46,300 nt of DNA from Lachnospiraceae bacterium. Lineage in GTDB: Bacteria; Bacillota; Clostridia; Lachnospirales; Lachnospiraceae. The stretch's first letter is position 1. Each line of letters opens with the position of its first letter. The notes beneath the pieces are model-generated. The model was not told where the DNA came from. It was given only the letters and a program-made list of their open reading frames with translations, and did not search any database. A program made the position numbers and the translations under genes. Below are positions 9,873 through 25,038 of this stretch, one piece after another. The stretch covers positions 1-46,300 of the forward strand of contig JAHZFJ010000005.1 of the NCBI GenBank assembly GCA_019421365.1, given 5' to 3'.

Positions 9873-10718
9873 ATGAATATTGAGAATAATGAAAAAAATC
9901 TAATCTTAAAAAGAATGTTATGTATGGTATTGGTGATAGCATTACTTATTCCAACACTGATAAGCTACAGCAAAGTAGCTCAGGCAGCAAGTAATACTAC
10001 AAAAGTAACAATTGCGAATTTTAAAGGTAGTTGGCAGGCTTCTGGTTATGCTCTTGGTAAGTCGGAGTATACTGCATATTTAGCTATGCGAGTAAAGGCA
10101 GATGGAAGTTTCTCTATATATGATCAAGAAGCAGGTAATCCAGGGATTTCGGGAATGATGACGGTAGTCGATGACGATACTATTTCATTAGAATGTGAAG
10201 CTGATGATTTTGACTCACCTTGGCCAGATCTACAATTAACCGATGAGTTAGAATATCACTTCTATAACGAAAATCAAGTTCGTATTACGTACCAAGATAA
10301 GTCAATTGTATTCTCAAAGGTTGGAAAGAGATTTGATTTCAATAAAACATTCTCAGGTAATTGGAATCAGGACTATTATAAAACATGGTATTCGAATAAC
10401 GGTATTAATGTGTCTGCAACCTATAAGCTTAAACTAGAAGGCGGCTCAATTTTGTTATATCGTGTGTACAAGAATAAAGAAACATTCTTAACAAGCTTTT
10501 GTGGTTTGAACTACAATAAGAAAACCCAAGTTGTAAAGACAATTACAGAGTTATCAGATGCTTCTAAATTACCGAAGAATTGGCGTACAATGAAAGAGGG
10601 TAGACATTTTCAGAGATTTAAGCTTAGTTATAATTCTAAAAAACATTGTTTAACGCTTACATTTAATAAAAAATCATATTCGTTCTATTCTAATGTAGTT
10701 TATGGGGAACGTAAATAA
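9873..10718 (+). CDS. Secreted hypothetical protein (signal peptide ..SKVAQA|AS)
   Basis: N-terminal hydrophobic segment followed by an AxA site. I recognise no domain. Confidence 0.6.
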   Translation: MNIENNEKNLILKRMLCMVLVIALLIPTLISYSKVAQAASNTTKVTIANFKGSWQASGYALGKSEYTAYLAMRVKADGSFSIYDQEAGNPGISGMMTVVDDDTISLECEADDFDSPWPDLQLTDELEYHFYNENQVRITYQDKSIVFSKVGKRFDFNKTFSGNWNQDYYKTWYSNNGINVSATYKLKLEGGSILLYRVYKNKETFLTSFCGLNYNKKTQVVKTITELSDASKLPKNWRTMKEGRHFQRFKLSYNSKKHCLTLTFNKKSYSFYSNVVYGERK

Positions 10719-10746: not shown

Positions 10747-10798
10747 AAAACAGCCGTCATGCTAACCGTATGAAGTTAGTGTGGCGGTTTTTTTTGTT
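10747..10798 (+). terminator. Rho-independent terminator (stem followed by TTTTTTTTGTT)
   Basis: GC-rich stem CAGCCG../..CGGCGG(T) and an 8-T run. Confidence 0.7.
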
Positions 10799-10891
10799 AT
10801 TGTGCTACACCTAAATTGACAAATGAAATATAAGGGAATGAGTAAGAATTAAAGCTATTTATTGTGTTTACTAATATTTACAAAAAAATAA

Positions 10892-10920
10892 TTGAAGTGA
10901 TACTACGTACGTGATATAAT
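10892..10920 (+). promoter_or_regulatory. Near-consensus sigma-A promoter (TTGAAG-17-TATAAT) for the EPS operon. It is followed by a roughly 125-nt leader.
   Basis: Read directly. Confidence 0.55.
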
Positions 10921-11051
10921 CCCAATATTGTGAATAAAGTAATAAAGGTAATAATAAAGTATTTAATGATGGTAAATTGTCATATAGACATTTTTGACTT
11001 TTGAATTATATGGCGATCGCCCGGGAGATATATTTAATGGAGAGGAACAAT

Positions 11052-12371
11052 ATGATGATCTATGAGAATTTAATCAACAAGAAGGACAAATTAGCTATAG
11101 TAGGACTGGGATATGTGGGGATGCCTTTGGCGGTAGCTTTTGCTGAATTGGTAGAGGTTATCGGATTTGATGTTAACCGAAGAAAAATTGAGAGATATCA
11201 ACAAGGAATTGATGAAACACAGGAGATTGGAGATGAGATGATTCAATCAACCAGTGTTGATTTTACCAGTGATGAAGAAAGGTTGCAAGAAGCTAGATTT
11301 TTTATTGTAGCGGTACCAACGCCCATTAAGGAAGATAAAACACCAGAATTAGCACCTGTACAAGGGGCGTGCGAAGTGATTGGCCGTCATTTACAGTCAG
11401 GAAGTATCATTGTCTTTGAATCAACTGTATACCCTGGAGTTACGGAAGATATCTGCGTACCGATTTTGGAACAAGTGTCAGGACTTACTTGTGGGAAGGA
11501 TTTTGGGATTGGGTATTCACCAGAAAGAATTAACCCAGGCGATCAAATACATAGAGTACATAATATAGTAAAGATTGTATCAGGGATGAATGATGAGGTC
11601 TTAGAAGAAATCGCAAAGGTTTATGAATTAGTGGTAAAGGCAGGAGTACACAGAGCTCCTTCTATTAAAGTAGCCGAGGCTGCCAAACTAGTAGAGAATG
11701 CACAACGAGATATCAATATAGCATTTATGAACGAGTTAGCGGTGGTTTTTGAGCGAATGGGAATCTGTACGAATGAAGTGGTTGAGGCTATGAATACAAA
11801 ATGGAATGCTCTAGGTTTTGCCCCTGGATTAGTAGGTGGACATTGTATCGGTGTAGATCCATATTATTTTATATACGAAGCATCTAAGAAAAATTACCAT
11901 TCGCCGATTATATCTGCTGGGCGTAAGATCAATAATGATATGGGAAGTTTTATTGCAGATATTACGATTAAACATATGATTAATGCTAATAAACGTATTA
12001 AAGATTCTAAGGTATGCATACTTGGTATTAGCTTCAAAGAAAACTGTCCAGATATACGAAATACTAGAGTGATGGACATTATCATAAGATTACAAGAATT
12101 TGGTGCCCATACTATCGTGGTTGACCCCGTGGCGAATGTAGAGGACTTAAGGAATGAGTATGGTGTTGAACTTGTTTCATTAGATACGGTAAGAGATGTT
12201 GACTGTGTTATTGCTGCAGTTGCACATGAAAGATTTAGAAATATGGGAATGAATGAATACGATCGCTTGTTTAAGAAAGATAACGAAGAGAGGAATGTGT
12301 TTATTGATGTAAAGAGCATTATGAATAAAAACATAATGGAATCAAGAGGATATTCTTATTGGAGTTTATAG
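11052..12371 (+). CDS. Nucleotide-sugar dehydrogenase of the UDP-N-acetylhexosamine 6-dehydrogenase class (TviB/WbpA/WecC-like)
   Basis: Rossmann motif GLGYVGMPLA and catalytic GGHCIG motif. The ORF track starts at 11001, but the ATG at 11052 has the RBS GGAGAGGAA. Confidence 0.8.
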   Translation: MMIYENLINKKDKLAIVGLGYVGMPLAVAFAELVEVIGFDVNRRKIERYQQGIDETQEIGDEMIQSTSVDFTSDEERLQEARFFIVAVPTPIKEDKTPELAPVQGACEVIGRHLQSGSIIVFESTVYPGVTEDICVPILEQVSGLTCGKDFGIGYSPERINPGDQIHRVHNIVKIVSGMNDEVLEEIAKVYELVVKAGVHRAPSIKVAEAAKLVENAQRDINIAFMNELAVVFERMGICTNEVVEAMNTKWNALGFAPGLVGGHCIGVDPYYFIYEASKKNYHSPIISAGRKINNDMGSFIADITIKHMINANKRIKDSKVCILGISFKENCPDIRNTRVMDIIIRLQEFGAHTIVVDPVANVEDLRNEYGVELVSLDTVRDVDCVIAAVAHERFRNMGMNEYDRLFKKDNEERNVFIDVKSIMNKNIMESRGYSYWSL

Positions 12372-12380
12372 GGGAAAGAT

Positions 12381-15300
12381 ATGATGAAGAGAAAGAGAAG
12401 TTGGTTTGTGATAGCAGGAGTAATTCTGCTTGTAGTGCTAAGCTTGGTTTTAGTACTCAATATTAAGAATAAGAAAGATACACCGGCGATAAAGCAAGTT
12501 AAACAGTATGTGAAATATGATGTCGACAAGGCCTATGAATTAGCTTTAGCGGAAGTGGAAAACAATTGTGATCTTGCAAGTGTTTTAACAGATGTGAAGA
12601 CTCTAGATTATGTAATGTCTTTGAATTTTATTGGACTTTCCGATAGTATGACTAATAACGCTATTGTTGATCTATTATCATCATATGATACTAAGGCTAC
12701 ATTCTTTATCTCGGGAATTTTAGCTGCTGAAGATTCTGATCTATTGCAACGGTTAGATAAGGACGGACATAAGATAGGTAGCAATGGACTAAACGGAGAT
12801 GCATTTATGGAGAAACTTTCTTCAAAGGAGTTAGTAAATTCTTTTGTACGTACTAATGGAATAATTAATACATATGTAGATCAAAAGGAACCTATTCTCT
12901 TGTATTGTACAGCTACAGAGTATACTGATCAAGTACTACAAGCGGCATATGCTAGTGGGAATGAGGAAGTAGTAAAGAGTGAGTATGTAATCAATTACGG
13001 AAGTTTTACCTCCTATGAACAAGTGCAGGGATACATACATAAGCTTCCAAAAGGTGCAATACTCACCGTTAAACTAGAAGGAGAACTTGAAGAGATAGAA
13101 TATCAGCCTTCCGTAACAGAAGAAGATCCGGCAAAGGATATGCAAGCAAACATAGAAGAATCGGAAGTACTTGAAGGGACTAATGAAGAGAAGATTCTAC
13201 AAATTACGGAATGGATATTGCGTGCAATGAAAGAAGAGGGAAGAGAGAATGTATTATGTAAGGACTTAACTTCTTATTATGATGCATCTTTGGATCAAGA
13301 CTATAGTAATGTAATACAAAAACTAGGAGAACCAGCATTTGCATATAAATCCATACCGAATAAGACAGGCAAGGTAGGTTTTGTATTCCGCGGTATTAGT
13401 GATGAAGATCAATTAGAAATAGCATTAACATTCCTAAAGGAACAAGATTACCGAGCAACTTTCTTTGTAACAGGAGATGAGGTAATTCGGTATCCAGAGA
13501 GAATTGAAGAAATTGTCTCTAAGGGTCATGAGATTGGTAATGGTGGTATGACAGGTAAGGATATAACAGAGATGAATTCTCAGGAAACATATTTTGAAAT
13601 TATGAAATGTGATGAGTTATTAAAGGAGAAGTTAGGGGATACGGTGAAGATCTTTATGCCTGGTTATGGTAAATACAATGAAACAACAAAACAGGTTGCG
13701 GGATTATTGAATTACAACATTGTTACTTATAACAAATATCCGATTGCTAACAAGGAAGTAAGTATAGAACAAGTAGAAGAATATTTTAATTTGCCGCTTA
13801 AGTCAGGAGATATTATCTATATTCCGTTAGGTGTTAGCACTCAATTTAATGAGATACTTAATGCTTTATCAAAGAAAATTGAGGATGACAATCGTGCAGT
13901 TGATATGGTAAGTGTCTTATTGCAAAATTTTGAATTACAGACGGAAGAACAAACAGTAACGACTATAGTAACGAATAAAAATAATTCTAAGAAAGATCCG
14001 ACTGTTACGGTTGTAGATAAGAAGAAGGAGAAAGAGAAGGAAGAAGAGAAAAAGAAGCAGGAAGAAAAAGATAAAGAAATAGAAAAGGCAAAAGCAGAAG
14101 AGGAAGTAATCATTAAAGAAGCAGATAGGTTGAGAAAGCTGAATAAAGGTCGATTATCTACAGTAAATCGTTTGGTTCACACGACAGATTTGGTAGTTGG
14201 ATACGGTTTTTCAGGTGTCAGCCGCGGTGATGTTGTTAATAAAGTGTTAGCAAAATTGAAAGAATTAAATATACATGCGACATTTTTTGTTTCTATAAAA
14301 GATATCAATAATTCTAAGAAAACCATCGACAAGATCGTGAAAGAAGGGCATGAACTACAGATTCTTTTACTAGATTCTAATGGAACGACATACACAGAAG
14401 TAGCAACGACTATTTTAAAAGTTAAAGATTTCATATATGAGACTTATAATCAAGATTCCACACTAGTAAGATATGCGTATGATGTTGACTATCAGAAAGA
14501 GGCTTTGGAAGCAATTTCAGCTACTTCTTGTAAAGTAATTGGTCAAAGTGCTTCTATTGCAACCTCAAAAGTAAGTAAAGATGCTACTGTAAATGAAATC
14601 ATGGACGCCACCTCTCATGAAGGTCTTTTGGTTGCAACAAGAGGATATATCGCATATTTTCGTATGGATTATTATGATAGTCCAACTGTAATTGCTAAGG
14701 TTATGGAGAAGATAAAGAAAGAAAAAGTAGACACCATTGGTTTCGTTGATGGAGGTACTAAGAGGGATGGATATCAATTTAAAACATTAAGTGAGATTAC
14801 ATCAGGTGAGGGAGTCTATCAATATCCACTTAAGGAATCATCTATATTAAAGGAAACAAAAGGTAAGATCGGTAAAGGTAGATTGGCTTCTGAAAATCTA
14901 TTTGAGTATATAGCCAAACGTTATGTTGGAAGTGATACGACTAAAACAATTTACTCACTGCCAGGATTTACAGAGGAAGAGATTGAGAAGCTTGATAAGA
15001 CAGGAAGGTTTACTGCTGATAAGGTACTCTTCTTAAGTTTTGATGACTGGGGTAGCGATGCTGCTATTACGAAGTTATTATATGTCTTAGATAAATATAA
15101 TGTAAAAGCGACCTTCTTTATACGAACGAATTATGTATTAGAGAATCCAAATCTTCTTCGTGCAATAGCACTTGCGGGACACGATGTTGCAAGTCATACC
15201 AATTCTCATATGGTATTAGCAAATACCACAGATGAGGCAGGGGTATATAGCAATCTTGACGATAAACAGGCAAATGATTTACAAGATGATTTTATTCTAT

Positions 15301-15707
15301 CGTACGATATCTTACAAGGCATCATTGGTGACATTCAGATTGACAATAGACCTTCGTTACAGACATATATGCGTCCACCGACGCTAGCGGTTAGTAAGAC
15401 GGGGCTTGAAGCAATCTTTGATGCAGGTGCTACAGGGGCTATATCAGGTGATTTCTCTACCCATGATTATGAAGCGAAGAGTGTTGTAGAGGTAGTCGAT
15501 AAGATGAAGAATGGTATTGTAATGAGTAATGATGAGATAAAGGTGATTCAAAATGGAAGTATCATAGTTATGCATATGTCAGATGAGGCAAAATATACAG
15601 CAGAGGCACTTGATGAAGTAATTCCATATTACTTATCAAAGGGGTATCATTTTGCACGAATAAGTGACTATTTAAGCAATGGAGAGTTGATTTCTAGTAA
15701 GGAGTAA
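12381..15707 (+). CDS. Membrane-anchored protein with four tandem CE4 (NodB-homology) polysaccharide deacetylase domains. Only domain 4 is catalytically intact. There is a KE-rich linker.
   Basis: Four ..ATFF(I/V).. NodB-type repeats. Domain 4 has SFDDWG and HDVASHTNSH (TFDDG and HTxxH motifs). Domains 1-3 keep GHxIG but lack the Asp-Asp and HTxxH motifs. Confidence 0.75.
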   Translation: MMKRKRSWFVIAGVILLVVLSLVLVLNIKNKKDTPAIKQVKQYVKYDVDKAYELALAEVENNCDLASVLTDVKTLDYVMSLNFIGLSDSMTNNAIVDLLSSYDTKATFFISGILAAEDSDLLQRLDKDGHKIGSNGLNGDAFMEKLSSKELVNSFVRTNGIINTYVDQKEPILLYCTATEYTDQVLQAAYASGNEEVVKSEYVINYGSFTSYEQVQGYIHKLPKGAILTVKLEGELEEIEYQPSVTEEDPAKDMQANIEESEVLEGTNEEKILQITEWILRAMKEEGRENVLCKDLTSYYDASLDQDYSNVIQKLGEPAFAYKSIPNKTGKVGFVFRGISDEDQLEIALTFLKEQDYRATFFVTGDEVIRYPERIEEIVSKGHEIGNGGMTGKDITEMNSQETYFEIMKCDELLKEKLGDTVKIFMPGYGKYNETTKQVAGLLNYNIVTYNKYPIANKEVSIEQVEEYFNLPLKSGDIIYIPLGVSTQFNEILNALSKKIEDDNRAVDMVSVLLQNFELQTEEQTVTTIVTNKNNSKKDPTVTVVDKKKEKEKEEEKKKQEEKDKEIEKAKAEEEVIIKEADRLRKLNKGRLSTVNRLVHTTDLVVGYGFSGVSRGDVVNKVLAKLKELNIHATFFVSIKDINNSKKTIDKIVKEGHELQILLLDSNGTTYTEVATTILKVKDFIYETYNQDSTLVRYAYDVDYQKEALEAISATSCKVIGQSASIATSKVSKDATVNEIMDATSHEGLLVATRGYIAYFRMDYYDSPTVIAKVMEKIKKEKVDTIGFVDGGTKRDGYQFKTLSEITSGEGVYQYPLKESSILKETKGKIGKGRLASENLFEYIAKRYVGSDTTKTIYSLPGFTEEEIEKLDKTGRFTADKVLFLSFDDWGSDAAITKLLYVLDKYNVKATFFIRTNYVLENPNLLRAIALAGHDVASHTNSHMVLANTTDEAGVYSNLDDKQANDLQDDFILSYDILQGIIGDIQIDNRPSLQTYMRPPTLAVSKTGLEAIFDAGATGAISGDFSTHDYEAKSVVEVVDKMKNGIVMSNDEIKVIQNGSIIVMHMSDEAKYTAEALDEVIPYYLSKGYHFARISDYLSNGELISSKE

Positions 15708-15709
15708 AG

Positions 15710-17512
15710 ATGATTAAGATAAAAAGAAAGAAAAATGTGCAAGATATCTTACTGGAACATAAAAAGGACAGAAGGTTATTACCCAATGTCCCTGATGCTA
15801 AGAAAATGCGTTCGGGGCAAGAGAGAAGAGGTAGTAGTGTAGAACACTTTGATCCAATTAGTAGAACGAGGTACCTGGTGCAGTATCCGGTTATGATTAT
15901 TTGCCGGCGAGGAATTGAGAAAAAGAGAATTAATGCAAGCGCAATTGATATTTCTACCAGTGGTATTTTAATTAAGGTGGAGCAAGAAGAGGATATTAGA
16001 ACATTAGAAGATTCTGGAAGTGCAACTTTGCGCTTCCAAGTGGTTCCAGGTACGATGCCAGAAGGCTTAGAGATGAAGATGCGAATTAAAGCGGATTTTG
16101 TTCGTAAGGTAGAACAAGAAGATGAAATGCTAGTAGCTATGAAGTTTCGTAAGGACTTAAAGCAAAAGGCGAAAGAAAAAAGAGGTAATTATGCTTTAGT
16201 ATCGTCTTGTATCCTACTAATATTTATTACGTTGTTTATTATGTTAATGAGAGCGGAAAGTATCCTTTATTTCAAGTTTAATAAGTGGTTATACTTGTAT
16301 AGTATTATTACAGCGGTTTTCTTGCTAACGAGATATCTGTTTGGATCATTTTATCGTCCTGTTAAAGTAGATCCTGAATATACACCATCTGTTACCATTA
16401 TTATTCCTTGTTTTAATGAGGAAATATGGATTCAACAGACCATACTTAGTTGTATGAATCAGAATTATCCGATGGATAAGTTAGAAGTAATAGTTGTTGA
16501 TGATCATTCAAGTGATGGATCGGTTGAGAAGATTAAGGAAATAACAGAACGTCTTTTTCGTGAGGGAGAAGAATATGATATTCCTAACCGATTACGATAT
16601 TTTGTACAGGAACGCAATGGAGGGAAAAGAGAGGCGCTTACAAGAGGAACATTAGAAGCAAAACATGATCTTGTAGTATTCGTTGACTCAGATAGTTTCC
16701 TTGATTCTGATGCGATTAGGAATCTAGTGCAACCATTCAAAGATCCTAAGATGGGAGGCGTCACTGGTCGTACGGATGTAGCTAATACATATACGAATGT
16801 ACTGACTAAGATGCAATCTGTAAGGTATTATATAGCATTTCGAATTATGAAAGCAGCTGAAGGATATTTTGATGCGGTGACTTGTTTATCAGGTCCACTT
16901 GCTTGCTATCGTAAGGAACTTGTAGTGAAGAATATTGATAAATGGTTAAGTCAAAGCTTTTTGGGACAGAAAGCAACTTTTGGAGATGATCGTGCTATGA
17001 CGAATTTCATACTCAAGGGGTATCGAACGGGATATCAAGATACTGCCGTATGTTCAACTGTTGTGCCCAATAGATATAAGGTTTTTCTTAAGCAGCAGAT
17101 GAGATGGAAGCGTTCTTGGCTTAGGGAATCTCTCATGGCTTCAAGATTCATGTGGAGAAAGGAACCCTTTGCTTCCGTTAGCTTTTATATGGGATTATTA
17201 GTTCCTGTCGCAGCACCAGTGGTGGTTGTTTATAATTTAATAATCGCACCAATTAGGTTTGGAATCTTTCCTACTACATTTTTAGTTGGTATGCTTATGA
17301 TGGCAATGATGATGAGTGTGGTACAGCTCTTATTACGTAAAAGTACCACTTGGATCTTTGGATTAGTATTTTGTTTGTTTTATGAAGGGGTACTATTATG
17401 GCAGATGCCAATAGCGTGGGTAACCTTTTGGAAATCAACATGGGGAACGCGTATGACACCAAATGATATTAGGGTGCAAGAAAAAAGAGAAAGTAGGAAG
17501 AAAATAGTGTGA
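15710..17512 (+). CDS. PilZ-domain fused to a processive GT2 synthase of the hyaluronan-synthase/NodC/chitin-synthase type
   Basis: N-terminal DISTSG (DxSxxG) PilZ motif with upstream Arg cluster; TM segments; DDHSSDGS, FVDSDS, GDDRAMTN and QQMRWKRSW (QxxRW) motifs. Confidence 0.75.
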   Translation: MIKIKRKKNVQDILLEHKKDRRLLPNVPDAKKMRSGQERRGSSVEHFDPISRTRYLVQYPVMIICRRGIEKKRINASAIDISTSGILIKVEQEEDIRTLEDSGSATLRFQVVPGTMPEGLEMKMRIKADFVRKVEQEDEMLVAMKFRKDLKQKAKEKRGNYALVSSCILLIFITLFIMLMRAESILYFKFNKWLYLYSIITAVFLLTRYLFGSFYRPVKVDPEYTPSVTIIIPCFNEEIWIQQTILSCMNQNYPMDKLEVIVVDDHSSDGSVEKIKEITERLFREGEEYDIPNRLRYFVQERNGGKREALTRGTLEAKHDLVVFVDSDSFLDSDAIRNLVQPFKDPKMGGVTGRTDVANTYTNVLTKMQSVRYYIAFRIMKAAEGYFDAVTCLSGPLACYRKELVVKNIDKWLSQSFLGQKATFGDDRAMTNFILKGYRTGYQDTAVCSTVVPNRYKVFLKQQMRWKRSWLRESLMASRFMWRKEPFASVSFYMGLLVPVAAPVVVVYNLIIAPIRFGIFPTTFLVGMLMMAMMMSVVQLLLRKSTTWIFGLVFCLFYEGVLLWQMPIAWVTFWKSTWGTRMTPNDIRVQEKRESRKKIV

Positions 17513-19254
17513 AAGATATGAGTAATATAGATGAAAATAAGAAGGATATAGAAAAAAGCAAAAAAGAAAAAGGTAGAAAAGTTATAAGTAAGAAAGACAT
17601 TAAAAAAACAATCTGTGGAACGTTTCAAGGAATTATATTACTTCTACTAGTTTTTCTGTTATTGCGTGCATGGTTAACTACAAACTCTTATGCTCCATAT
17701 GACGATGCAGATATACAAACAAAAGATTCAGGATTTATAGCTTTATCATACTTTGGAGTTAGTAGAATTGGCGATGATGTAACTATAACAACAAAGAGAT
17801 TTGAAGAGCATATAAAAGCCCTTAAGGAAAACGGTTACGTAACCATAACACAACAAGACATATTAGATTATTATCTTAATGGAAAAAAACTACCTGAGAA
17901 GGCTCTTTTCCTAATGTTTGAAGATGGATACGCAGGAACTGCAATATTTGCAGGAAAACTGATGCAGAAATACAACCTGAAAGCAACTATGCTTACATAT
18001 GGTGATAAACTAGCAATAAAGGATCCTAAATTCCTAACACCAAAAGACCTTAAACAATTAGAAAAGGAGACGTACTGGGAGATTGGAACGAATGGATATC
18101 GGTTATCCTATATTAACGTGTTTGACAAAGAAGATAATTATCTAGGAGAGTTATCATCTTATGAGTTCGTCGAAGTTAGAAATGAACTGAACAGAAAGTA
18201 TAATCACTATCTGATGGATTATATACGCGATGAGTACGGAGTTCCAAAAGAAACGTATCAGCAGATGAAGAATCGTATAATAACAGATTATCAATTACTA
18301 GAAGACAGTTATACCGAAGGGATTAATTATGTACCTAAATTACATGTACTGATGCATGCTAATACAGAGATGTATGGAAACAATCAAAGAGTAAGTGATG
18401 TTAATGAAGAGATGATTAAAGATATGTTTGCAATGAATTTTAACCGAGAGGGATTCAGTGTAAACAATGAGGAATGTAATCTCTATGATTTAACAAGAAT
18501 GCAACCACAAGCATATTGGTCACCAAATCACTTATTAATGCGAATATGGGATGATACCAAACAAGATGTTACCTTTGAGGTTGGAGATAAGGAAGAGAGT
18601 AAACAATTTGAATCTTTAAAAGGTGCTACACAGTTTGCAGAGGAATCTATAACCATTACATCACTTCCTAGTGATTCAGGTTTAATTAAATTAAAGGACA
18701 GTGAGGATTATCAGGATGTTCAATTAGACGTAACCGTTAGTGGTAATGTCTTAGGAGGACAGGGGATATATCTTCGTGCAGATGAGACCTTGCAAAATTA
18801 TGTTAAGGTACAACTAATCAACAACGAGTTAAGAATTATTGAATGCGTAGAGGGTGTAGAATCTATCATAAAGAGCGAGAATCTAGAAAGTTTAGAGGAT
18901 ATCGATACGTCTAATATTCAACTATTCACTTCGGCAAAACGGCAACTTAAGATTGGATTGAAGGACGATGCTATTACGGTTTCAGTTAATGGGAAAGACT
19001 TTAGTCCAGAAGGTACTTTACAACAAGTGAAACCAGGATCTTTGCTGTTAGAATCCGTATGTGATGAAGAAGCATATAGCCAAAGAAATCTGTATGATGA
19101 TGTATATGACGGTGTATTTGAAAAACTTGTTGTCTCTTTAAGTGATTCGGAAGAGATCTTATATGATAATCAACTTCATGGCCTTAATAAAGTATGGAGT
19201 AGTATAAAGACAGAGTGGAGTAATATATTAAACTGGTTTGTAGAGAATCTATAA
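17509..19254 (+). CDS. Membrane-anchored protein with a degenerate CE4/PgaB-like deacetylase-like N-domain and a beta-rich C-domain
   Basis: GTG start 8 nt after AGGAAG; TM; LMFEDGYAGT resembles TFDDG; no HTxxH motif. Confidence 0.45.
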   Translation: MKDMSNIDENKKDIEKSKKEKGRKVISKKDIKKTICGTFQGIILLLLVFLLLRAWLTTNSYAPYDDADIQTKDSGFIALSYFGVSRIGDDVTITTKRFEEHIKALKENGYVTITQQDILDYYLNGKKLPEKALFLMFEDGYAGTAIFAGKLMQKYNLKATMLTYGDKLAIKDPKFLTPKDLKQLEKETYWEIGTNGYRLSYINVFDKEDNYLGELSSYEFVEVRNELNRKYNHYLMDYIRDEYGVPKETYQQMKNRIITDYQLLEDSYTEGINYVPKLHVLMHANTEMYGNNQRVSDVNEEMIKDMFAMNFNREGFSVNNEECNLYDLTRMQPQAYWSPNHLLMRIWDDTKQDVTFEVGDKEESKQFESLKGATQFAEESITITSLPSDSGLIKLKDSEDYQDVQLDVTVSGNVLGGQGIYLRADETLQNYVKVQLINNELRIIECVEGVESIIKSENLESLEDIDTSNIQLFTSAKRQLKIGLKDDAITVSVNGKDFSPEGTLQQVKPGSLLLESVCDEEAYSQRNLYDDVYDGVFEKLVVSLSDSEEILYDNQLHGLNKVWSSIKTEWSNILNWFVENL

Positions 19255-19266
19255 TTGGAGGAATAC

Positions 19267-20388
19267 ATGAAAAAGAAGTGCATGAATAGGAAATGCATGA
19301 TAAAAGTACATCGATTATATCTAGTAGCAATGATAGTGTTGTGCTTGCTTAGTTTAGCTAGCTGCGATAGGGTGAAAGAACAACAGAATACGAAAATAGA
19401 GAATGCAGAAGATGACAATACGAATATGCAAGAACCTCAAGCTAATTCTTCCTTAGAAGATGATATTGAAGAAGAGAATAAAGTAAGTGTTTGGGTAACT
19501 TATTGGGATACAGAGGGACTAATAGAAGAACTGAGTGTGTGGGAACCATACATCAAACAAATAAATTATTTTGCTGCCTATTTTAAGAAAGATGGAAGTC
19601 TGTTTGTGCCAAAACAAACGAAAGAAAGTAAGGAATCCATAAACAGACTTCTTGATGGTAGTAAGCTATTCGAATATCTTACTATTGTAAATGATCAAGA
19701 ATTAGAAGATGGAACGTCAGCCTTAAAGAGTACCGAGTTATTATATTCCTTATTCGAATCAGAAGAAACCATGATAAAGCATATTAATGATATTCTTCAA
19801 GTCACTTTAGACGGTGGTTATGATGGAATAGAAATCGACTATGAGGCAATTCGTGATGATAGGGCCTTATGGGATAAGTATCTAGTTTTCCTTAATTCAC
19901 TAACAAAGGTAGCAAAGGATAATAATCTTTCCCTTCGTGTGTTGTTAGAACCTTCGACTCCAGTTGACGACATTCAATTTCCTGAAGGAATTGAATATAT
20001 AATGATGTGCTACAATCTATATGGCTATGGAACCGAACCAGGGCCAAAGGCGAATAGAGACTTTCTAATCGAAATGGTAGAAAAGATGAAGAAAGTCTCT
20101 ATTCGTCGAGGTTATGCACTTGCTACGGGAGGATTTGATTTTTCCTCTGATGGTAAAACAACAGCAGTAACAATGGTCGAAGCAATGGACCTACAATCAA
20201 CTGAGGCAAATGATAGCTACCGTGACGAACAGAGTCAGTGTGTGGTTTTTACCTATACGAAGCAGAACATGACCCATGAAGTATGGTATGCCGATGAGGA
20301 GACACTTAAATATTGGACTACAGTAATAAATGAAGAAGGAGAGAAAAACATCTCCATATGGCGACTAGGTGGAACTATTCGCAATTAA
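19267..20388 (+). CDS. GH18-like glycoside hydrolase lipoprotein (chitinase-like fold)
   Basis: Lipobox LSLASC; YDGIEIDYE matches the GH18 DxxDxDxE region with Glu in place of the second Asp; start ATG 19267 after GGAGGAA (ORF track 19255). Confidence 0.55.
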   Translation: MKKKCMNRKCMIKVHRLYLVAMIVLCLLSLASCDRVKEQQNTKIENAEDDNTNMQEPQANSSLEDDIEEENKVSVWVTYWDTEGLIEELSVWEPYIKQINYFAAYFKKDGSLFVPKQTKESKESINRLLDGSKLFEYLTIVNDQELEDGTSALKSTELLYSLFESEETMIKHINDILQVTLDGGYDGIEIDYEAIRDDRALWDKYLVFLNSLTKVAKDNNLSLRVLLEPSTPVDDIQFPEGIEYIMMCYNLYGYGTEPGPKANRDFLIEMVEKMKKVSIRRGYALATGGFDFSSDGKTTAVTMVEAMDLQSTEANDSYRDEQSQCVVFTYTKQNMTHEVWYADEETLKYWTTVINEEGEKNISIWRLGGTIRN

Positions 20389-23760: not shown

Positions 23761-25038
23761 ATGTCAATAAATCAAAGAATTCCAACAAATCAAAAAATCC
23801 CCAAAGAGAAAGGGATTGACCATACTTTAGATCTTATCAAAGAAGGATATCCATTTATTCAAAAACGTATTAAAAAATATCAGTCACCAATAGTAATATC
23901 ACGATTATTTGGAAAGAGAGCAATTTTTCTAAGTGGAGTAGAGGCGGCGAAGGTCTTTTATAATGATAAATATTTTAAACGGCATGGTGTGGCGCCTATG
24001 CGTGTTCAAAAAACATTATTTGGGAAACATGCAATTCAGGGACTTGATGGGAAAGAGCATCTGAAACGAAAACAATTGTTTATGTCCTTATTAACACCTG
24101 AGTATGAAAAGCAGTTAATCGATTTATGTGTATTGAACTTAGAACGTAAGGCAAAAGAATGGGAAAAGAAGCCAAGTATTAAGTTATTTGACGAAAGCAA
24201 AAAGGTACTGTTTATAAGTGTATGTGAATGGACCGCTGTTCCGTATCCCAAAGCAAAAGAAAAAGAGATTCTAGAAGACTTTGGATATATGATCTACTCT
24301 TTTGGTAGAATGGGTTCATATTATCGAAAAGGTAAACGTTCGAGAAAGTGTGTAGAACATTGGATAGAACAACTTATTGAAGATGTAAGAACTGGAAAAT
24401 TCGTAGTAGATGCAAGTACTCCGCTATATCAGATGAGTATGTGTCGGAATACGAAGGGTGAACTAGTGAATATAAAAATCGCTGCAAGGGAACTTATTAA
24501 TCTTCTGCGACCTATTATAGCAATTGCCACATACATTACCTTTGTGGCTGTAGCATTATATGAAAATCCTGAATGCAAAGATAAATTAAAGACGGAAGAT
24601 TCTTTATATCTAGAGATGTTTTGCCAGGAGGTAAGACGATATTATCCCTTTAGCCCATTCGTTGGAGCTAAAGTAATTAAGAGCTTTAGATGGAAGCAGT
24701 GTGTATTCAAAAAAAATACACTGGTGCTTCTTGATTTATATGGAATGATGCATGATGAGAAGCTTTGGAAACAACCCTATAGATTTAATCCAGATCGATT
24801 TAAGGACCGTAAGGAATGTCTATATGATTTGATGCCCCAAGGTGGAGGAAATATTCAAAAAGGACATCGATGTGCCGGTGATATACTAACATTGAAGGTT
24901 ATGATGGCCTTTACTGACTATCTGGTGAATAAAATAGAGTATACCGTGCCGAAACAAGATTTATGTATTCCACTTAATAAGATACCGACACTACCAAGAA
25001 GTGGGTTTGTTATGAAGAATGTAAGAACAATAATATAA
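23761..25038 (+). CDS. CYP152-family cytochrome P450 fatty-acid peroxygenase (P450 BSbeta/OleT-like)
   Basis: Matches remembered P450 BSbeta sequence nearly along its length: LLRPIIAI (Arg-Pro carboxylate site), PQGGG..KGHRCAGD heme-thiolate loop, RVQKTLFG with Gln at the BSbeta Gln85 position. Confidence 0.85.
   Translation: MSINQRIPTNQKIPKEKGIDHTLDLIKEGYPFIQKRIKKYQSPIVISRLFGKRAIFLSGVEAAKVFYNDKYFKRHGVAPMRVQKTLFGKHAIQGLDGKEHLKRKQLFMSLLTPEYEKQLIDLCVLNLERKAKEWEKKPSIKLFDESKKVLFISVCEWTAVPYPKAKEKEILEDFGYMIYSFGRMGSYYRKGKRSRKCVEHWIEQLIEDVRTGKFVVDASTPLYQMSMCRNTKGELVNIKIAARELINLLRPIIAIATYITFVAVALYENPECKDKLKTEDSLYLEMFCQEVRRYYPFSPFVGAKVIKSFRWKQCVFKKNTLVLLDLYGMMHDEKLWKQPYRFNPDRFKDRKECLYDLMPQGGGNIQKGHRCAGDILTLKVMMAFTDYLVNKIEYTVPKQDLCIPLNKIPTLPRSGFVMKNVRTII

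What the first reader, a model, noticed from the sequence alone, without database searches (positions are those of the whole stretch)
12381..15707. 1108-aa protein with four NodB/CE4 domains, only the last catalytically competent
Four repeats share the ..ATFF(I/V).. NodB core. Domain 4 keeps the Asp-Asp motif (SFDDWG) and the His-His metal motif (HDVASHTNSH). Domains 1-3 retain GHxIG but have lost both motifs (IGLSDS/HKIGSNG; RGISDED/HEIGNGG; FSGVSRGD/HELQ). This pattern suggests pseudo-deacetylase domains repurposed as polysaccharide-binding modules that feed one active domain. A KE-rich charged linker of about 60 aa separates domains 2 and 3.
Basis: seen in the sequence. Interest (0 to 1): 0.6.

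Follow-up and report, generated by a model that had tools for sequence, protein, structure and literature searches.

The report
Tandem deacetylase with three dead domains
A membrane-anchored bacterial surface protein carries four copies of a sugar-deacetylase fold, only the last of which keeps its catalytic residues, and it sits in a widespread five-gene cassette for a secreted polysaccharide on which I found no published work.

Summary
ORF 12381-15707 encodes a 1108-aa protein with an N-terminal membrane helix and four CE4/NodB domains, each significant on its own against Pfam PF01522. Only domain 4 keeps the catalytic set (Asp-Asp, His-His, Arg-Pro, Asp-Tyr, His). Domains 1-3 have lost the catalytic base, all three metal ligands and the catalytic acid.

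The pattern holds across the family. In all 80 related loci, and in relatives with up to seven domains, only the last domain has the catalytic set. The dead domains are old: paralogues share 18-23% identity. They are under purifying selection as strong as the live domain (dN/dS 0.06-0.15 against 0.12-0.13).

The gene is tightly packed into a conserved cassette:
- a HexNAc-type UDP-sugar dehydrogenase;
- this protein;
- a hyaluronan-synthase/NodC-like GT2 with a PilZ-like N-terminus;
- a degenerate PgaB-like protein with a CBM66-like domain;
- a GH18-like lipoprotein.

The most likely function is an extracellular de-N-acetylase for a GlcNAc-containing exopolysaccharide. Conservation concentrates at the old cleft only in domain 2, and weakly. 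Single CE4 pseudoenzymes are known. I found no description of tandem arrays like this one or of this cassette.

The parts
12381..15707 (+). Whole ORF: 1108-aa multi-CE4 protein (stop codon included)
   Evidence: The start lies 10 nt after the stop of the upstream gene, preceded by GGGGAAAG.
12390..12467 (+). N-terminal transmembrane helix (aa 4-29), read as a signal anchor, which places the rest of the protein outside the cell
   Evidence: The sequence is KRKRSWFVIAGVILLVVLSLVLVLNIKNKK. AF2 predicts helix 4-29. The topology is inferred.
12594..13142 (+). D1: pseudo-CE4 domain (aa 72-254). Key positions read IGNGYCNYK.
   Evidence: Pfam 45.9 bits. Motif states. dN/dS 0.06-0.09. G85, Y206 and K231 are conserved.
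13353..13901 (+). D2: pseudo-CE4 domain (aa 325-507). Key positions read RGGGMPANP. Absent from the roughly 800-900 aa relatives.
   Evidence: Pfam 78.7 bits. The best PDB match by sequence is 4m1b, BA0150. FRGI, NGG..G and FMP..GKYN are conserved. Architectures.
13968..14150 (+). K/E-rich linker (aa 530-590), with a predicted single long helix at aa 548-588 (nt 14022-14144)
   Evidence: Composition. AF2 predicts helix 548-588 at pLDDT about 59-84, with a disordered stretch at 520-549.
14175..14780 (+). D3: pseudo-CE4 domain (aa 599-800). Key positions read SGLSRYTSR. Only the Arg of MT3 is kept.
   Evidence: Pfam 39.2 bits. Motif states. dN/dS 0.14-0.15.
15006..15653 (+). D4: catalytically competent CE4 domain (aa 876-1091). 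It has D888/D889 (nt 15042-15047), H939 (15195-15197), H943 (15207-15209), R998-P999-P1000, H1028-D1029-Y1030 and H1065 (15573-15575).
   Evidence: Pfam 66.8 bits. Asp-Asp and H-x-x-x-H align with SpPgdA 2c1g. The residues are invariant in the homologues.
11001..12371 (+). Cassette gene 1: UDP-N-acetylhexosamine-type 6-dehydrogenase (TviB / WbpA / Cap5O-like)
   Evidence: Adjacent in 53 of 80 loci.
15710..17512 (+). Cassette gene 3: membrane GT2 synthase (hyaluronan synthase / NodC / chitin-synthase-like) with a PilZ-like N-terminus
   Evidence: Adjacent in 78 of 80 loci at about 60% identity.
17509..19254 (+). Cassette gene 4: 581-aa membrane protein with a degenerate PgaB/IcaB-like domain and a CBM66/ConA-like beta-sandwich
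   Evidence: Present in 73 of 80 loci.
19255..20388 (+). Cassette gene 5: 377-aa lipoprotein with a GH18-like barrel (SleL/YaaH/YdhD-like)
   Evidence: Present in 63 of 80 loci.
10752..10920 (+). Terminator-like hairpin (10752-10789), then a promoter-like site (10892-10920) in front of the cassette
   Evidence: These are consensus matches only. Their number in the region is no higher than in shuffled sequence.

Best explanation
The protein is the extracellular modifying enzyme of a synthase-dependent exopolysaccharide cassette. A single N-terminal helix anchors it in the membrane.

The C-terminal CE4 domain (D4) is a metal-dependent de-N-acetylase. It acts on the GlcNAc-containing polymer, probably also containing a uronic acid, that the adjacent hyaluronan-synthase/NodC-like GT2 extrudes.

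The three upstream CE4 domains are pseudoenzymes kept by selection for a non-catalytic job. Most likely, together with the rigid K/E helix, they form a modular array that holds or guides the nascent chain and positions D4 away from the membrane.

What is shown by computation:
- the fold of all four domains;
- the presence or absence of the catalytic residues;
- their conservation across about 80 species;
- purifying selection on the dead domains;
- the operon context.

What is inferred:
- the topology;
- the identity of the polymer;
- that D4 acts on it;
- what the dead domains bind.
For: - Four CE4 domains.
- D4 has the full catalytic set, invariant across the family.
- D1-D3 lack it everywhere, yet have dN/dS of 0.06-0.15.
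- Orthologous dead domains are more alike (30-34%) than paralogous ones within one protein (18-23%). The duplications are therefore ancient and there has been no concerted evolution.
- The number of dead domains ranges from 2 to 6, always followed by one live C-terminal domain.
- The five genes are near-contiguous or overlapping. Synteny with the GT2 holds in 78 of 80 loci, with the PgaB-like gene in 73, the GH18-like gene in 63 and the dehydrogenase in 53.
- The closest solved relatives of the GT2 are hyaluronan synthases (E 7e-37). Its best NCBIfam match is NodC.
- The dehydrogenase is closest to TviB, Cap5O and UDP-ManNAc dehydrogenases.
- The other CE4-like protein of the cassette lacks the His and Asp residues of PgaB. 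D4 is thus the only canonical deacetylase site in the cassette.
- There is precedent for non-catalytic CE4 proteins that bind glycan: BA0330 and BA0331 lack activity and pull down with peptidoglycan (PMC4505593). Ba0150/4M1B is called a pseudoenzyme in PMC10967932, and BA3943 is titled one in its PDB entries.
Against: - There is no biochemical or genetic data for any member of the family or the cassette.
- Conservation at the former cleft is significant only for D2, and weakly (P=0.026). It is not significant for D1 or D3.
- All four domain types are net acidic, so no simple charge argument for binding an acidic polymer can be made.
- The AF2 pTM is 0.53, so the arrangement of the domains is unknown. 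Coordinates could not be inspected, so the metal geometry of D4 was not checked.
- The dehydrogenase is missing next to 27 of 80 loci, so a uronic acid may not be universal.
- The PilZ match is below Pfam's threshold (E 0.0038).
Confidence: 0.6

Rival explanations
1. The dead domains bind peptidoglycan rather than the exopolysaccharide. They would anchor or thread the enzyme through the thick Gram-positive wall, with the K/E helix as a strut, so that D4 works at or beyond the wall.
For: - D1-D3 score best against the PdaB, YlxY and PdaA sporulation models, whose members act on or accompany peptidoglycan.
- The best match of D2 among solved structures is BA0150, which is thought to derive from MurNAc deacetylases (PMC10967932).
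- The inactive CE4 lipoproteins BA0330 and BA0331 bind peptidoglycan (PMC4505593).
- The variable copy number would suit a length-adjustable spacer.
Against: - D4 also scores best against PdaB and PdaA, so the affinity may reflect shared ancestry rather than ligand.
- The family also occurs in Negativicutes such as Sporomusa and Lucifera. From general knowledge, these have a thin wall and an outer membrane.
- No binding data exist.
Confidence: 0.18
2. The dead domains are protein-protein scaffolds. The protein would act as a co-polymerase or assembly platform, a functional analogue of BcsB or PgaD. It would dock on the synthase and recruit the PgaB-like protein and the GH18-like lipoprotein.
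For: - The cassette has no BcsB-, PgaD- or PssD-like partner.
- Gene order and tight coupling with the synthase are conserved.
- Conservation in D1 and D3 is spread over the domain rather than centred on the cleft.
Against: - The copy number of dead domains ranges from 2 to 6, and D2 is dispensable in 31 of 80 loci. That is unusual for a fixed docking interface.
- No interaction could be modelled with these tools.
Confidence: 0.12
3. D1-D3 are not dead. They would carry a different, metal-independent activity, for example an esterase or a lyase, that uses new residues.
For: - D1-type domains keep a recurring constellation at the old site: Gly at MT1, Asn-Tyr/His at MT4 and Lys at MT5. It is seen in the window, in most loci, and in all five D1-like repeats of P0200 and P0218.
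- D2 keeps FRGI, NGG..G and MP.
Against: - No conserved acid/base pair or His/Asp cluster replaces the lost residues.
- Long-range conservation is far lower than in D4: 30-34% against 52% median identity.
- The conserved positions are rich in Gly, which suits loop shape rather than chemistry.
Confidence: 0.06
4. It is a sporulation cortex enzyme of the PdaB/PdaA type, which is what an automatic annotation could suggest.
For: The whole protein scores 245.9 bits against TIGR02764 (PdaB), above the cut-off of 237.4.
Against: - That score is the sum of four domain hits. Each domain alone scores 41-96 bits, far below the cut-off.
- The synteny is with an EPS synthase, not with sporulation genes.
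- The family occurs in Lactobacillus equicursoris, which does not form spores (the spore statement is general knowledge).
Confidence: 0.03

Closest known systems
Single-domain CE4 pseudoenzymes of Bacillus anthracis: BA0150 (PDB 4M1B, PdaB-like) and BA3943 (PDB 7BKF, 6HM9)
   Same: - They have the NodB fold but lack catalytic or metal-binding residues.
- D2 is closest to 4m1b by sequence (E 5.6e-17).
- The AF2 model matches 4m1b and 7bkf at TM 0.64-0.85.
   Different: - Those are stand-alone one-domain proteins linked to the cell wall or to sporulation.
- Here two to six dead domains are fused in a row to one live CE4 domain, on a membrane anchor, inside an EPS synthase cassette.
- D2 is more degenerate than BA0150, because MT3, MT4 and MT5 are lost too.
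BA0330 / BA0331: CE4 lipoproteins without activity that stabilise the wall (PMC4505593)
   Same: They are membrane-tethered extracytoplasmic CE4-fold proteins with a non-enzymatic, glycan-binding role.
   Different: - They keep the Asp-His-His metal site and bind zinc, whereas D1-D3 have lost it.
- They carry an Fn3 domain, have one CE4 domain each, and are not fused to an active enzyme.
PgaB and PelA: multidomain modifying enzymes of synthase-dependent exopolysaccharides
   Same: - A deacetylase domain works together with further glycan-handling domains on a polymer just after synthesis.
- PelA is a four-domain enzyme with two activities (PMC12022489).
- The second barrel domain of PgaB binds and cuts PNAG (from memory: Little et al. 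2014 and 2018).
   Different: - In those enzymes the accessory domains have other folds (glycoside hydrolase, beta-rich).
- Their deacetylase belongs to the permuted NodB2 type or to CE21.
- Here the accessory domains are copies of the deacetylase fold itself, and D4 has the canonical MT1-to-MT5 order.
- This protein matches no PgaB or IcaB model.
Active peptidoglycan/chitin CE4 enzymes (SpPgdA 2C1G, Bc1960 4L1G, CtCE4 2C71)
   Same: D4 aligns with them through Asp-Asp, H-x-x-x-H and the C-terminal L-x-H region. The fold match has TM 0.84.
   Different: D4 reaches no NCBIfam equivalog cut-off, so its substrate cannot be transferred from them.
Streptococcal-type hyaluronan operon (synthase plus UDP-sugar 6-dehydrogenase) and PilZ-gated BcsA
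   Same: - A processive membrane GT2 is encoded next to a nucleotide-sugar 6-dehydrogenase.
- The closest solved relatives of the GT2 are hyaluronan synthases.
- A PilZ-type module is fused to the synthase.
   Different: - The dehydrogenase is of the N-acetylhexosamine type rather than UDP-glucose dehydrogenase.
- The PilZ-like module is N-terminal and matches weakly.
- The cassette adds a deacetylase array, a PgaB-like/CBM protein and a GH18-like lipoprotein.

Membership tests
CE4 / NodB homology domain (Pfam PF01522) | Each repeat scores above the Pfam gathering score (23.1 bits) on its own | tested here: met
   D1 45.9, D2 78.7, D3 39.2 and D4 66.8 bits. The fold is confirmed by Foldseek at TM 0.84-0.88.
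Catalytically competent CE4 deacetylase | MT1 Asp-Asp (catalytic base plus metal ligand) | tested here: met
   Met for D4 only: D888-D889, invariant. D1 has IG, D2 RG and D3 SG, so it is not met for D1-D3. Motif definitions are from PMC10967932.
Catalytically competent CE4 deacetylase | MT2 His-x-x-x-His metal ligands | tested here: met
   Met for D4 only: H939 and H943, invariant. D1 has N/G, D2 G/G and D3 L/S, so it is not met for D1-D3.
Catalytically competent CE4 deacetylase | MT3 Arg-Pro, MT4 Asp-(Trp/Tyr), MT5 catalytic-acid His | tested here: met
   Met for D4: R998-P999, D1029-Y1030 and H1065. D1 has YC/NY/K, D2 MP/AN/P and D3 RY/TS/R, so it is not met for D1-D3 apart from the Arg of D3.
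Catalytically competent CE4 deacetylase | Bound divalent metal and measurable deacetylase activity | not testable with these tools
CE4 pseudoenzyme (BA0150 / BA3943-like) | NodB fold kept, catalytic or metal residues lost, sequence still under selection | tested here: met
   For D1-D3: fold, loss of residues, dN/dS 0.06-0.15. Lack of activity itself was not tested.
PdaB (NCBIfam TIGR02764, equivalog) | One domain scores at or above the 237.4-bit cut-off | tested here: not met
   The domains score 52.7, 89.6, 41.2 and 95.8 bits. The whole-protein score of 245.9 bits passes only by summing the four.
PdaA delta-lactam de-N-acetylase (TIGR02884) | Score at or above 298 bits | tested here: not met
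   D4 scores 67 bits and the whole protein 138.6 bits.
PNAG deacetylases PgaB / IcaB | Match to TIGR03938 or TIGR03933, and the permuted NodB2 motif order (MT5 first) | tested here: not met
   This protein has no hit to either model. D4 has the canonical order MT1 to MT5.
Synthase-dependent exopolysaccharide system | A membrane GT2 synthase co-encoded with modifying and degrading enzymes, in conserved synteny | tested here: met
Synthase-dependent exopolysaccharide system | A c-di-GMP receptor (PilZ) that gates the synthase | tested here: inconclusive
   The Pfam PilZ match has E 0.0038 and 18 bits, below the 22.5-bit cut-off. D-x-S-x-x-G and an Arg cluster are conserved in 63 orthologues.

The most novel reading that the evidence does not exclude
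The cassette makes a so far undescribed Firmicute exopolysaccharide, a partly de-N-acetylated chitin- or hyaluronan-like GlcNAc/HexNAc-uronic acid polymer under c-di-GMP control. The row of dead CE4 domains would be a new kind of carbohydrate-handling array. These enzyme-derived lectin modules would thread the nascent chain to the single live domain. Their copy number (2 to 6), together with the rigid K/E helix, would set how far from the membrane the chain is deacetylated, or in what pattern.
Probability: 0.25. Interest if true: 0.7.

Novelty: new variant of a known kind. Interest (0 to 1): 0.5.

Why it matters
CE4 deacetylases set the charge, and so the adhesiveness and immune visibility, of chitin, peptidoglycan and biofilm polysaccharides. 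Single inactive CE4 proteins are known, but their roles are poorly understood. This family offers a natural experiment: two to six dead copies are always followed by one live copy, and the arrangement is conserved across Clostridia, Negativicutes and some Bacilli. If the dead copies bind the polymer, they would be a new class of carbohydrate-binding module derived from an enzyme fold. They would also suggest how deacetylation patterns are set.

The surrounding five-gene cassette is common in gut, rumen and soil anaerobes. About 200 clusters at 50% identity match the protein at E <= 1e-30, many of them partial sequences, and the neighbouring gene has more than 2000 relatives. The cassette appears not to be described in the papers searched, so it points to an unstudied matrix polymer.

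There is a practical point as well. Summing the four domain scores pushes the protein over the PdaB equivalog threshold, which could produce a wrong automatic name.

Tried and rejected
- **Riboswitch or other RNA upstream.** Rfam gave no match anywhere in the window.
- **Basic residues at the dead sites binding an acidic polymer.** R or K occurs at some former catalytic positions. However, all four domain types are net acidic, with medians of -2 to -4 per 100 aa. I dropped this as evidence.
- **Former cleft as the conserved surface.** The enrichment test supports this only weakly for D2 and not for D1 or D3.
- **PdaB or PdaA membership.** Rejected on per-domain scores.
- **Link to the Lactobacillus acidophilus gts operon.** That system has a different architecture: GtsA/GtsB plus an EAL-domain receptor, with no PilZ fusion and no deacetylase (PMC6123363). 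Rejected.
- **Literature on tandem NodB domains or on this cassette.** Eight searches and a reading of the EPS-operon survey PMC7112194 found nothing. The library lacks most subscription-journal papers, so this is absence in that library only.
- **Promoter and terminator scan.** The counts are no higher than in shuffled sequence, so the sites listed are only suggestive.


Full report
**1. The observation**

The window holds an ORF at 12381-15707 on the + strand that encodes 1108 aa. Pfam PF01522 (polysaccharide deacetylase, CE4/NodB) matches it in four stretches (E 7e-65). Scanned alone, each of the four segments passes the Pfam gathering score of 23.1 bits: D1 45.9, D2 78.7, D3 39.2 and D4 66.8 bits. 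ATFF occurs at aa 106, 359, 633 and 910.

A local-pair alignment of the four domains from 21 homologues aligns them over the whole fold, through all five CE4 motifs. The motif definitions are those of PMC10967932. At the nine key positions (MT1 D,D; MT2 H,H; MT3 R,P; MT4 D,Y; MT5 H) the residues are:

| Domain | Residues |
|---|---|
| D1 | IGNGYCNYK |
| D2 | RGGGMPANP |
| D3 | SGLSRYTSR |
| D4 | DDHHRPDYH |

D3 keeps the Arg of MT3. D3 reads GHELQ, so 'GHxIG' holds only for D1 and D2.

The charged linker is real. It spans aa 530-590 with 18 K, 13 E, 4 D and 2 R in 61 residues.

An AlphaFold2 model built on the 21-sequence alignment has mean pLDDT 82.3. It shows:
- an N-terminal helix at aa 4-29;
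- four confident beta/alpha domains;
- disordered stretches at aa 242-263 and 520-549;
- one unbroken helix at aa 548-588 in the linker.

Foldseek places the model on CE4 crystal structures with target TM 0.84-0.88 and rmsd 2.1-2.4 A. These include Bc1960 (4l1g), BA0150 (4m1b) and BA3943, whose PDB entries are titled 'a CE4 family pseudoenzyme'. The pTM is 0.53, so the relative arrangement of the domains is not known.

**2. Is the pattern accidental or selected?**

Homologues exist. The word-indexed search found 56 proteins at E <= 1e-10. The exhaustive search of 50%-identity representatives found 201 at E <= 1e-30. A scan of one genome per species found 190 loci, of which the best 80 were kept. 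The nearest named genome is Anaerosporobacter mobilis at 81% identity, so the window is from a related member of the Lachnospiraceae.

In 21 full-length homologues the following D4 residues are invariant: D888, D889, H939, H943, R998, P999, P1000, H1028, D1029, Y1030 and H1065.

I built an HMM from the domains and scanned all 80 loci.
- The last domain reads DDHHRPDYH in 78 of them.
- One locus has Ser for the Pro.
- In one locus the reading frame I extracted ends after the Asp-Asp, so the rest could not be read.
- No upstream domain in any locus carries the catalytic set.

The architectures are D1-D2-D3-D4 (35 loci), D1-D3-D4 (31) and D1-D2-D2-D4 (5). The rest are mostly cut by contig ends. 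Two representatives of about 1800 aa (P0200, P0218) have seven domains: five D1-like, one D2-like and one live C-terminal domain. The rule across the family is 'two to six dead domains, then one live one'.

Three measures describe how the dead domains evolve.
- **Age.** Paralogous domains within one protein share 18-23% identity. Orthologous domains across species share 30-34% (D1-D3) or 52% (D4). The duplications and the loss of catalytic residues are therefore ancient, and there has been no concerted evolution.
- **Selection.** Against the two closest genomes, dN/dS is 0.06-0.09 for D1, 0.11 for D2, 0.14-0.15 for D3 and 0.12-0.13 for D4. The dead domains are under purifying selection as strong as the live one.
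- **Long-range conservation.** Over the whole family D1-D3 keep mainly fold-core residues: F-x-G at MT1, ATFF and the Gly of GH. D4 keeps a dense set of residues.

**3. Context**

The gene is the second of five tightly packed genes. The gaps are 9, 2, -4 (an overlap) and 0 nt. A terminator-like hairpin and a promoter-like site lie upstream, but these are consensus matches only.

| Gene | Window coordinates | What it resembles | Calls |
|---|---|---|---|
| 1 | 11001-12371 | Nucleotide-sugar 6-dehydrogenase, closest to TviB (UDP-GlcNAc 6-dehydrogenase) and to Cap5O/UDP-ManNAc dehydrogenases | 7, 51 |
| 2 | 12381-15707 | This protein | see sections 1-2 |
| 3 | 15710-17512 | Membrane GT2. Best NCBIfam model is NodC. 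Closest solved relatives are class I hyaluronan synthases (E 7e-37). | 7, 50 |
| 4 | 17509-19254 | 581-aa membrane protein with a PgaB/IcaB/PplD-like domain and a CBM66/ConA-like beta-sandwich | 38, 64, 66 |
| 5 | 19255-20388 | 377-aa lipoprotein with a GH18-like barrel (SleL 4s3j, E 2.5e-7; motif G-x-E-I-D-x-E) | 38, 39 |

Further detail on two of these:
- The N-terminal 150 aa of gene 3 match PilZ weakly (E 0.0038, below threshold). D-x-S-x-x-G and an Arg cluster are conserved in 63 orthologues.
- In gene 4 the conserved residues are S-Y..V, E-D-G and W-E-x-G-x-N-G-Y. They lie where PgaB has His55 and Asp114-Asp115 (alignment) and where I place its two His ligands from memory.

Synteny across the 80 loci is as follows: GT2 in 78, the PgaB-like gene in 73, the GH18-like gene in 63 and the dehydrogenase in 53. 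The loci span Clostridia, Negativicutes, Lactobacillus equicursoris and Absicoccus. D4 is the only canonical deacetylase active site in the cassette.

**4. Mechanism**

This part is inferred. The layout is that of a synthase-dependent exopolysaccharide system: a processive membrane synthase, a precursor enzyme, an extracellular modifying enzyme and a hydrolase. The synthase type and the GH18-like hydrolase point to a GlcNAc-containing, chitin- or hyaluronan-like chain. The dehydrogenase suggests an N-acetylhexosaminuronic acid component where it is present.

The N-terminal helix would tether the protein outside the membrane. D4 would de-N-acetylate the emerging chain. The dead domains are selected, modular and variable in number, which fits a binding, guiding or spacing array. 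The K/E stretch looks like an ER/K single alpha-helix (general knowledge). At 41 residues it would be a spacer of about 6 nm (my arithmetic).

I tested whether conservation in the 21 close homologues concentrates near the former catalytic positions:

| Domain | P value |
|---|---|
| D4 | 5e-4 |
| D2 | 0.026 |
| D1 | 0.22 |
| D3 | 0.63 |

The specific idea that the old clefts are the binding sites therefore has weak support for D2 only. In D2 the segments FRGI, NGG..G and FMP..G cluster there, and GKYN is conserved just downstream. D1-type domains do keep a recurring Gly / Asn-Tyr(His) / Lys constellation, even in the five repeats of P0200 and P0218. A new site there, or even a new chemistry, cannot be excluded.

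The rivals are peptidoglycan binding or wall spanning, a protein scaffold or co-polymerase role, residual alternative catalysis, and a sporulation enzyme. They are weighed in the rival-explanations section.

**5. Comparison with what is known**

Single CE4 pseudoenzymes are known.
- Ba0150/4M1B is called a pseudoenzyme and catalytically inert in PMC10967932.
- BA3943 is titled a CE4 pseudoenzyme in its PDB entries.
- BA0330 and BA0331 lack activity and bind peptidoglycan (PMC4505593).
- Multidomain EPS modifiers such as PelA are also known (PMC12022489).

What differs here is the fusion of several dead copies of the same fold to one live copy, and the cassette it sits in. Eight literature searches found no description of tandem NodB arrays or of this cassette. 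That is absence in a library that lacks most subscription-journal papers.

On membership, all four domains belong to CE4 by Pfam. D4 meets every sequence criterion for an active CE4. No domain reaches any NCBIfam equivalog cut-off. The whole-protein PdaB score of 245.9 against a cut-off of 237.4 is an artefact of summing four domains.

**6. Verdict**

The statement that domains 1-3 are pseudo-deacetylases and only the last is competent is well supported by sequence. The 'binding modules that feed the active domain' part remains a reasonable but untested hypothesis. I rate this a new variant of a known kind, of moderate interest. It would be more interesting if the array proves to be a new enzyme-derived carbohydrate-binding system, or if the cassette proves to make a new matrix polymer.

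Noticed in passing
window 17509-19254 (+): The 581-aa cassette protein has a PgaB/IcaB-like domain in which the residues aligned with PgaB His55 and Asp114 are Phe/Tyr and Glu. The region where I would expect the His-His ligands reads W-E-x-G-x-N-G-Y. All of this is conserved in 71 orthologues. The domain is followed by a CBM66/ConA-like beta-sandwich. This looks like a second probable pseudo-deacetylase. NCBI names its relatives 'glycoside hydrolase', and more than 2000 relatives were found.
   Followed up: partly
window 19255-20388 (+): This 377-aa lipoprotein (lipobox LASC) has no Pfam or NCBIfam hit. It matches the GH18 cortex-lytic enzymes SleL, YaaH and YdhD in the PDB (E 2.5e-7). It carries a variant GH18 motif, DGIEIDYE.
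   Followed up: partly
window 15710-16160 (+): The N-terminus of the GT2 synthase is PilZ-like, with D-x-S-x-x-G and a conserved 'DRR...R....RR' Arg cluster. It falls below Pfam's PilZ threshold and lacks a clean RxxxR spacing. It may be a variant c-di-GMP site.
   Followed up: partly
P0200 (1847 aa) and P0218 (1804 aa): These relatives have seven CE4-like domains: five near-identical-pattern D1-like repeats (EGYGKGNHK), one D2-like domain and one live domain. In the live domain the Arg of MT3 is replaced by Gln or Tyr.
   Followed up: partly
L078, L079 (Lactobacillus), L070 (Absicoccus), L062, L069: In these loci the second domain matches only the first half of the domain model (about 100-130 aa). 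D2 appears to be eroding or shortened in some lineages, and it is absent altogether from the roughly 800-900 aa proteins.
   Followed up: no
window 11001-11090 (+): The TTG start listed for the dehydrogenase is probably too far upstream. Homology begins near aa 29-30, and Met codons lie at aa 18-19.
   Followed up: no
window 23761-25038 (+): This 425-aa ORF has a C-terminal cytochrome P450 match (E 2e-18). That is an unusual family for a strict anaerobe of the Lachnospiraceae.
   Followed up: no
window 9873-10718 (+): This 281-aa predicted secreted protein, just upstream of the cassette, matches no family. It is conserved only in the two closest genomes (L001, L002). A strong terminator-like hairpin at 10752-10789 separates it from the cassette.
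   Followed up: no
window 12381-15707 (+), annotation issue: The whole-protein score against NCBIfam TIGR02764 (PdaB) exceeds the equivalog cut-off only because four domain scores add up. This could lead to a wrong automatic name.
   Followed up: yes
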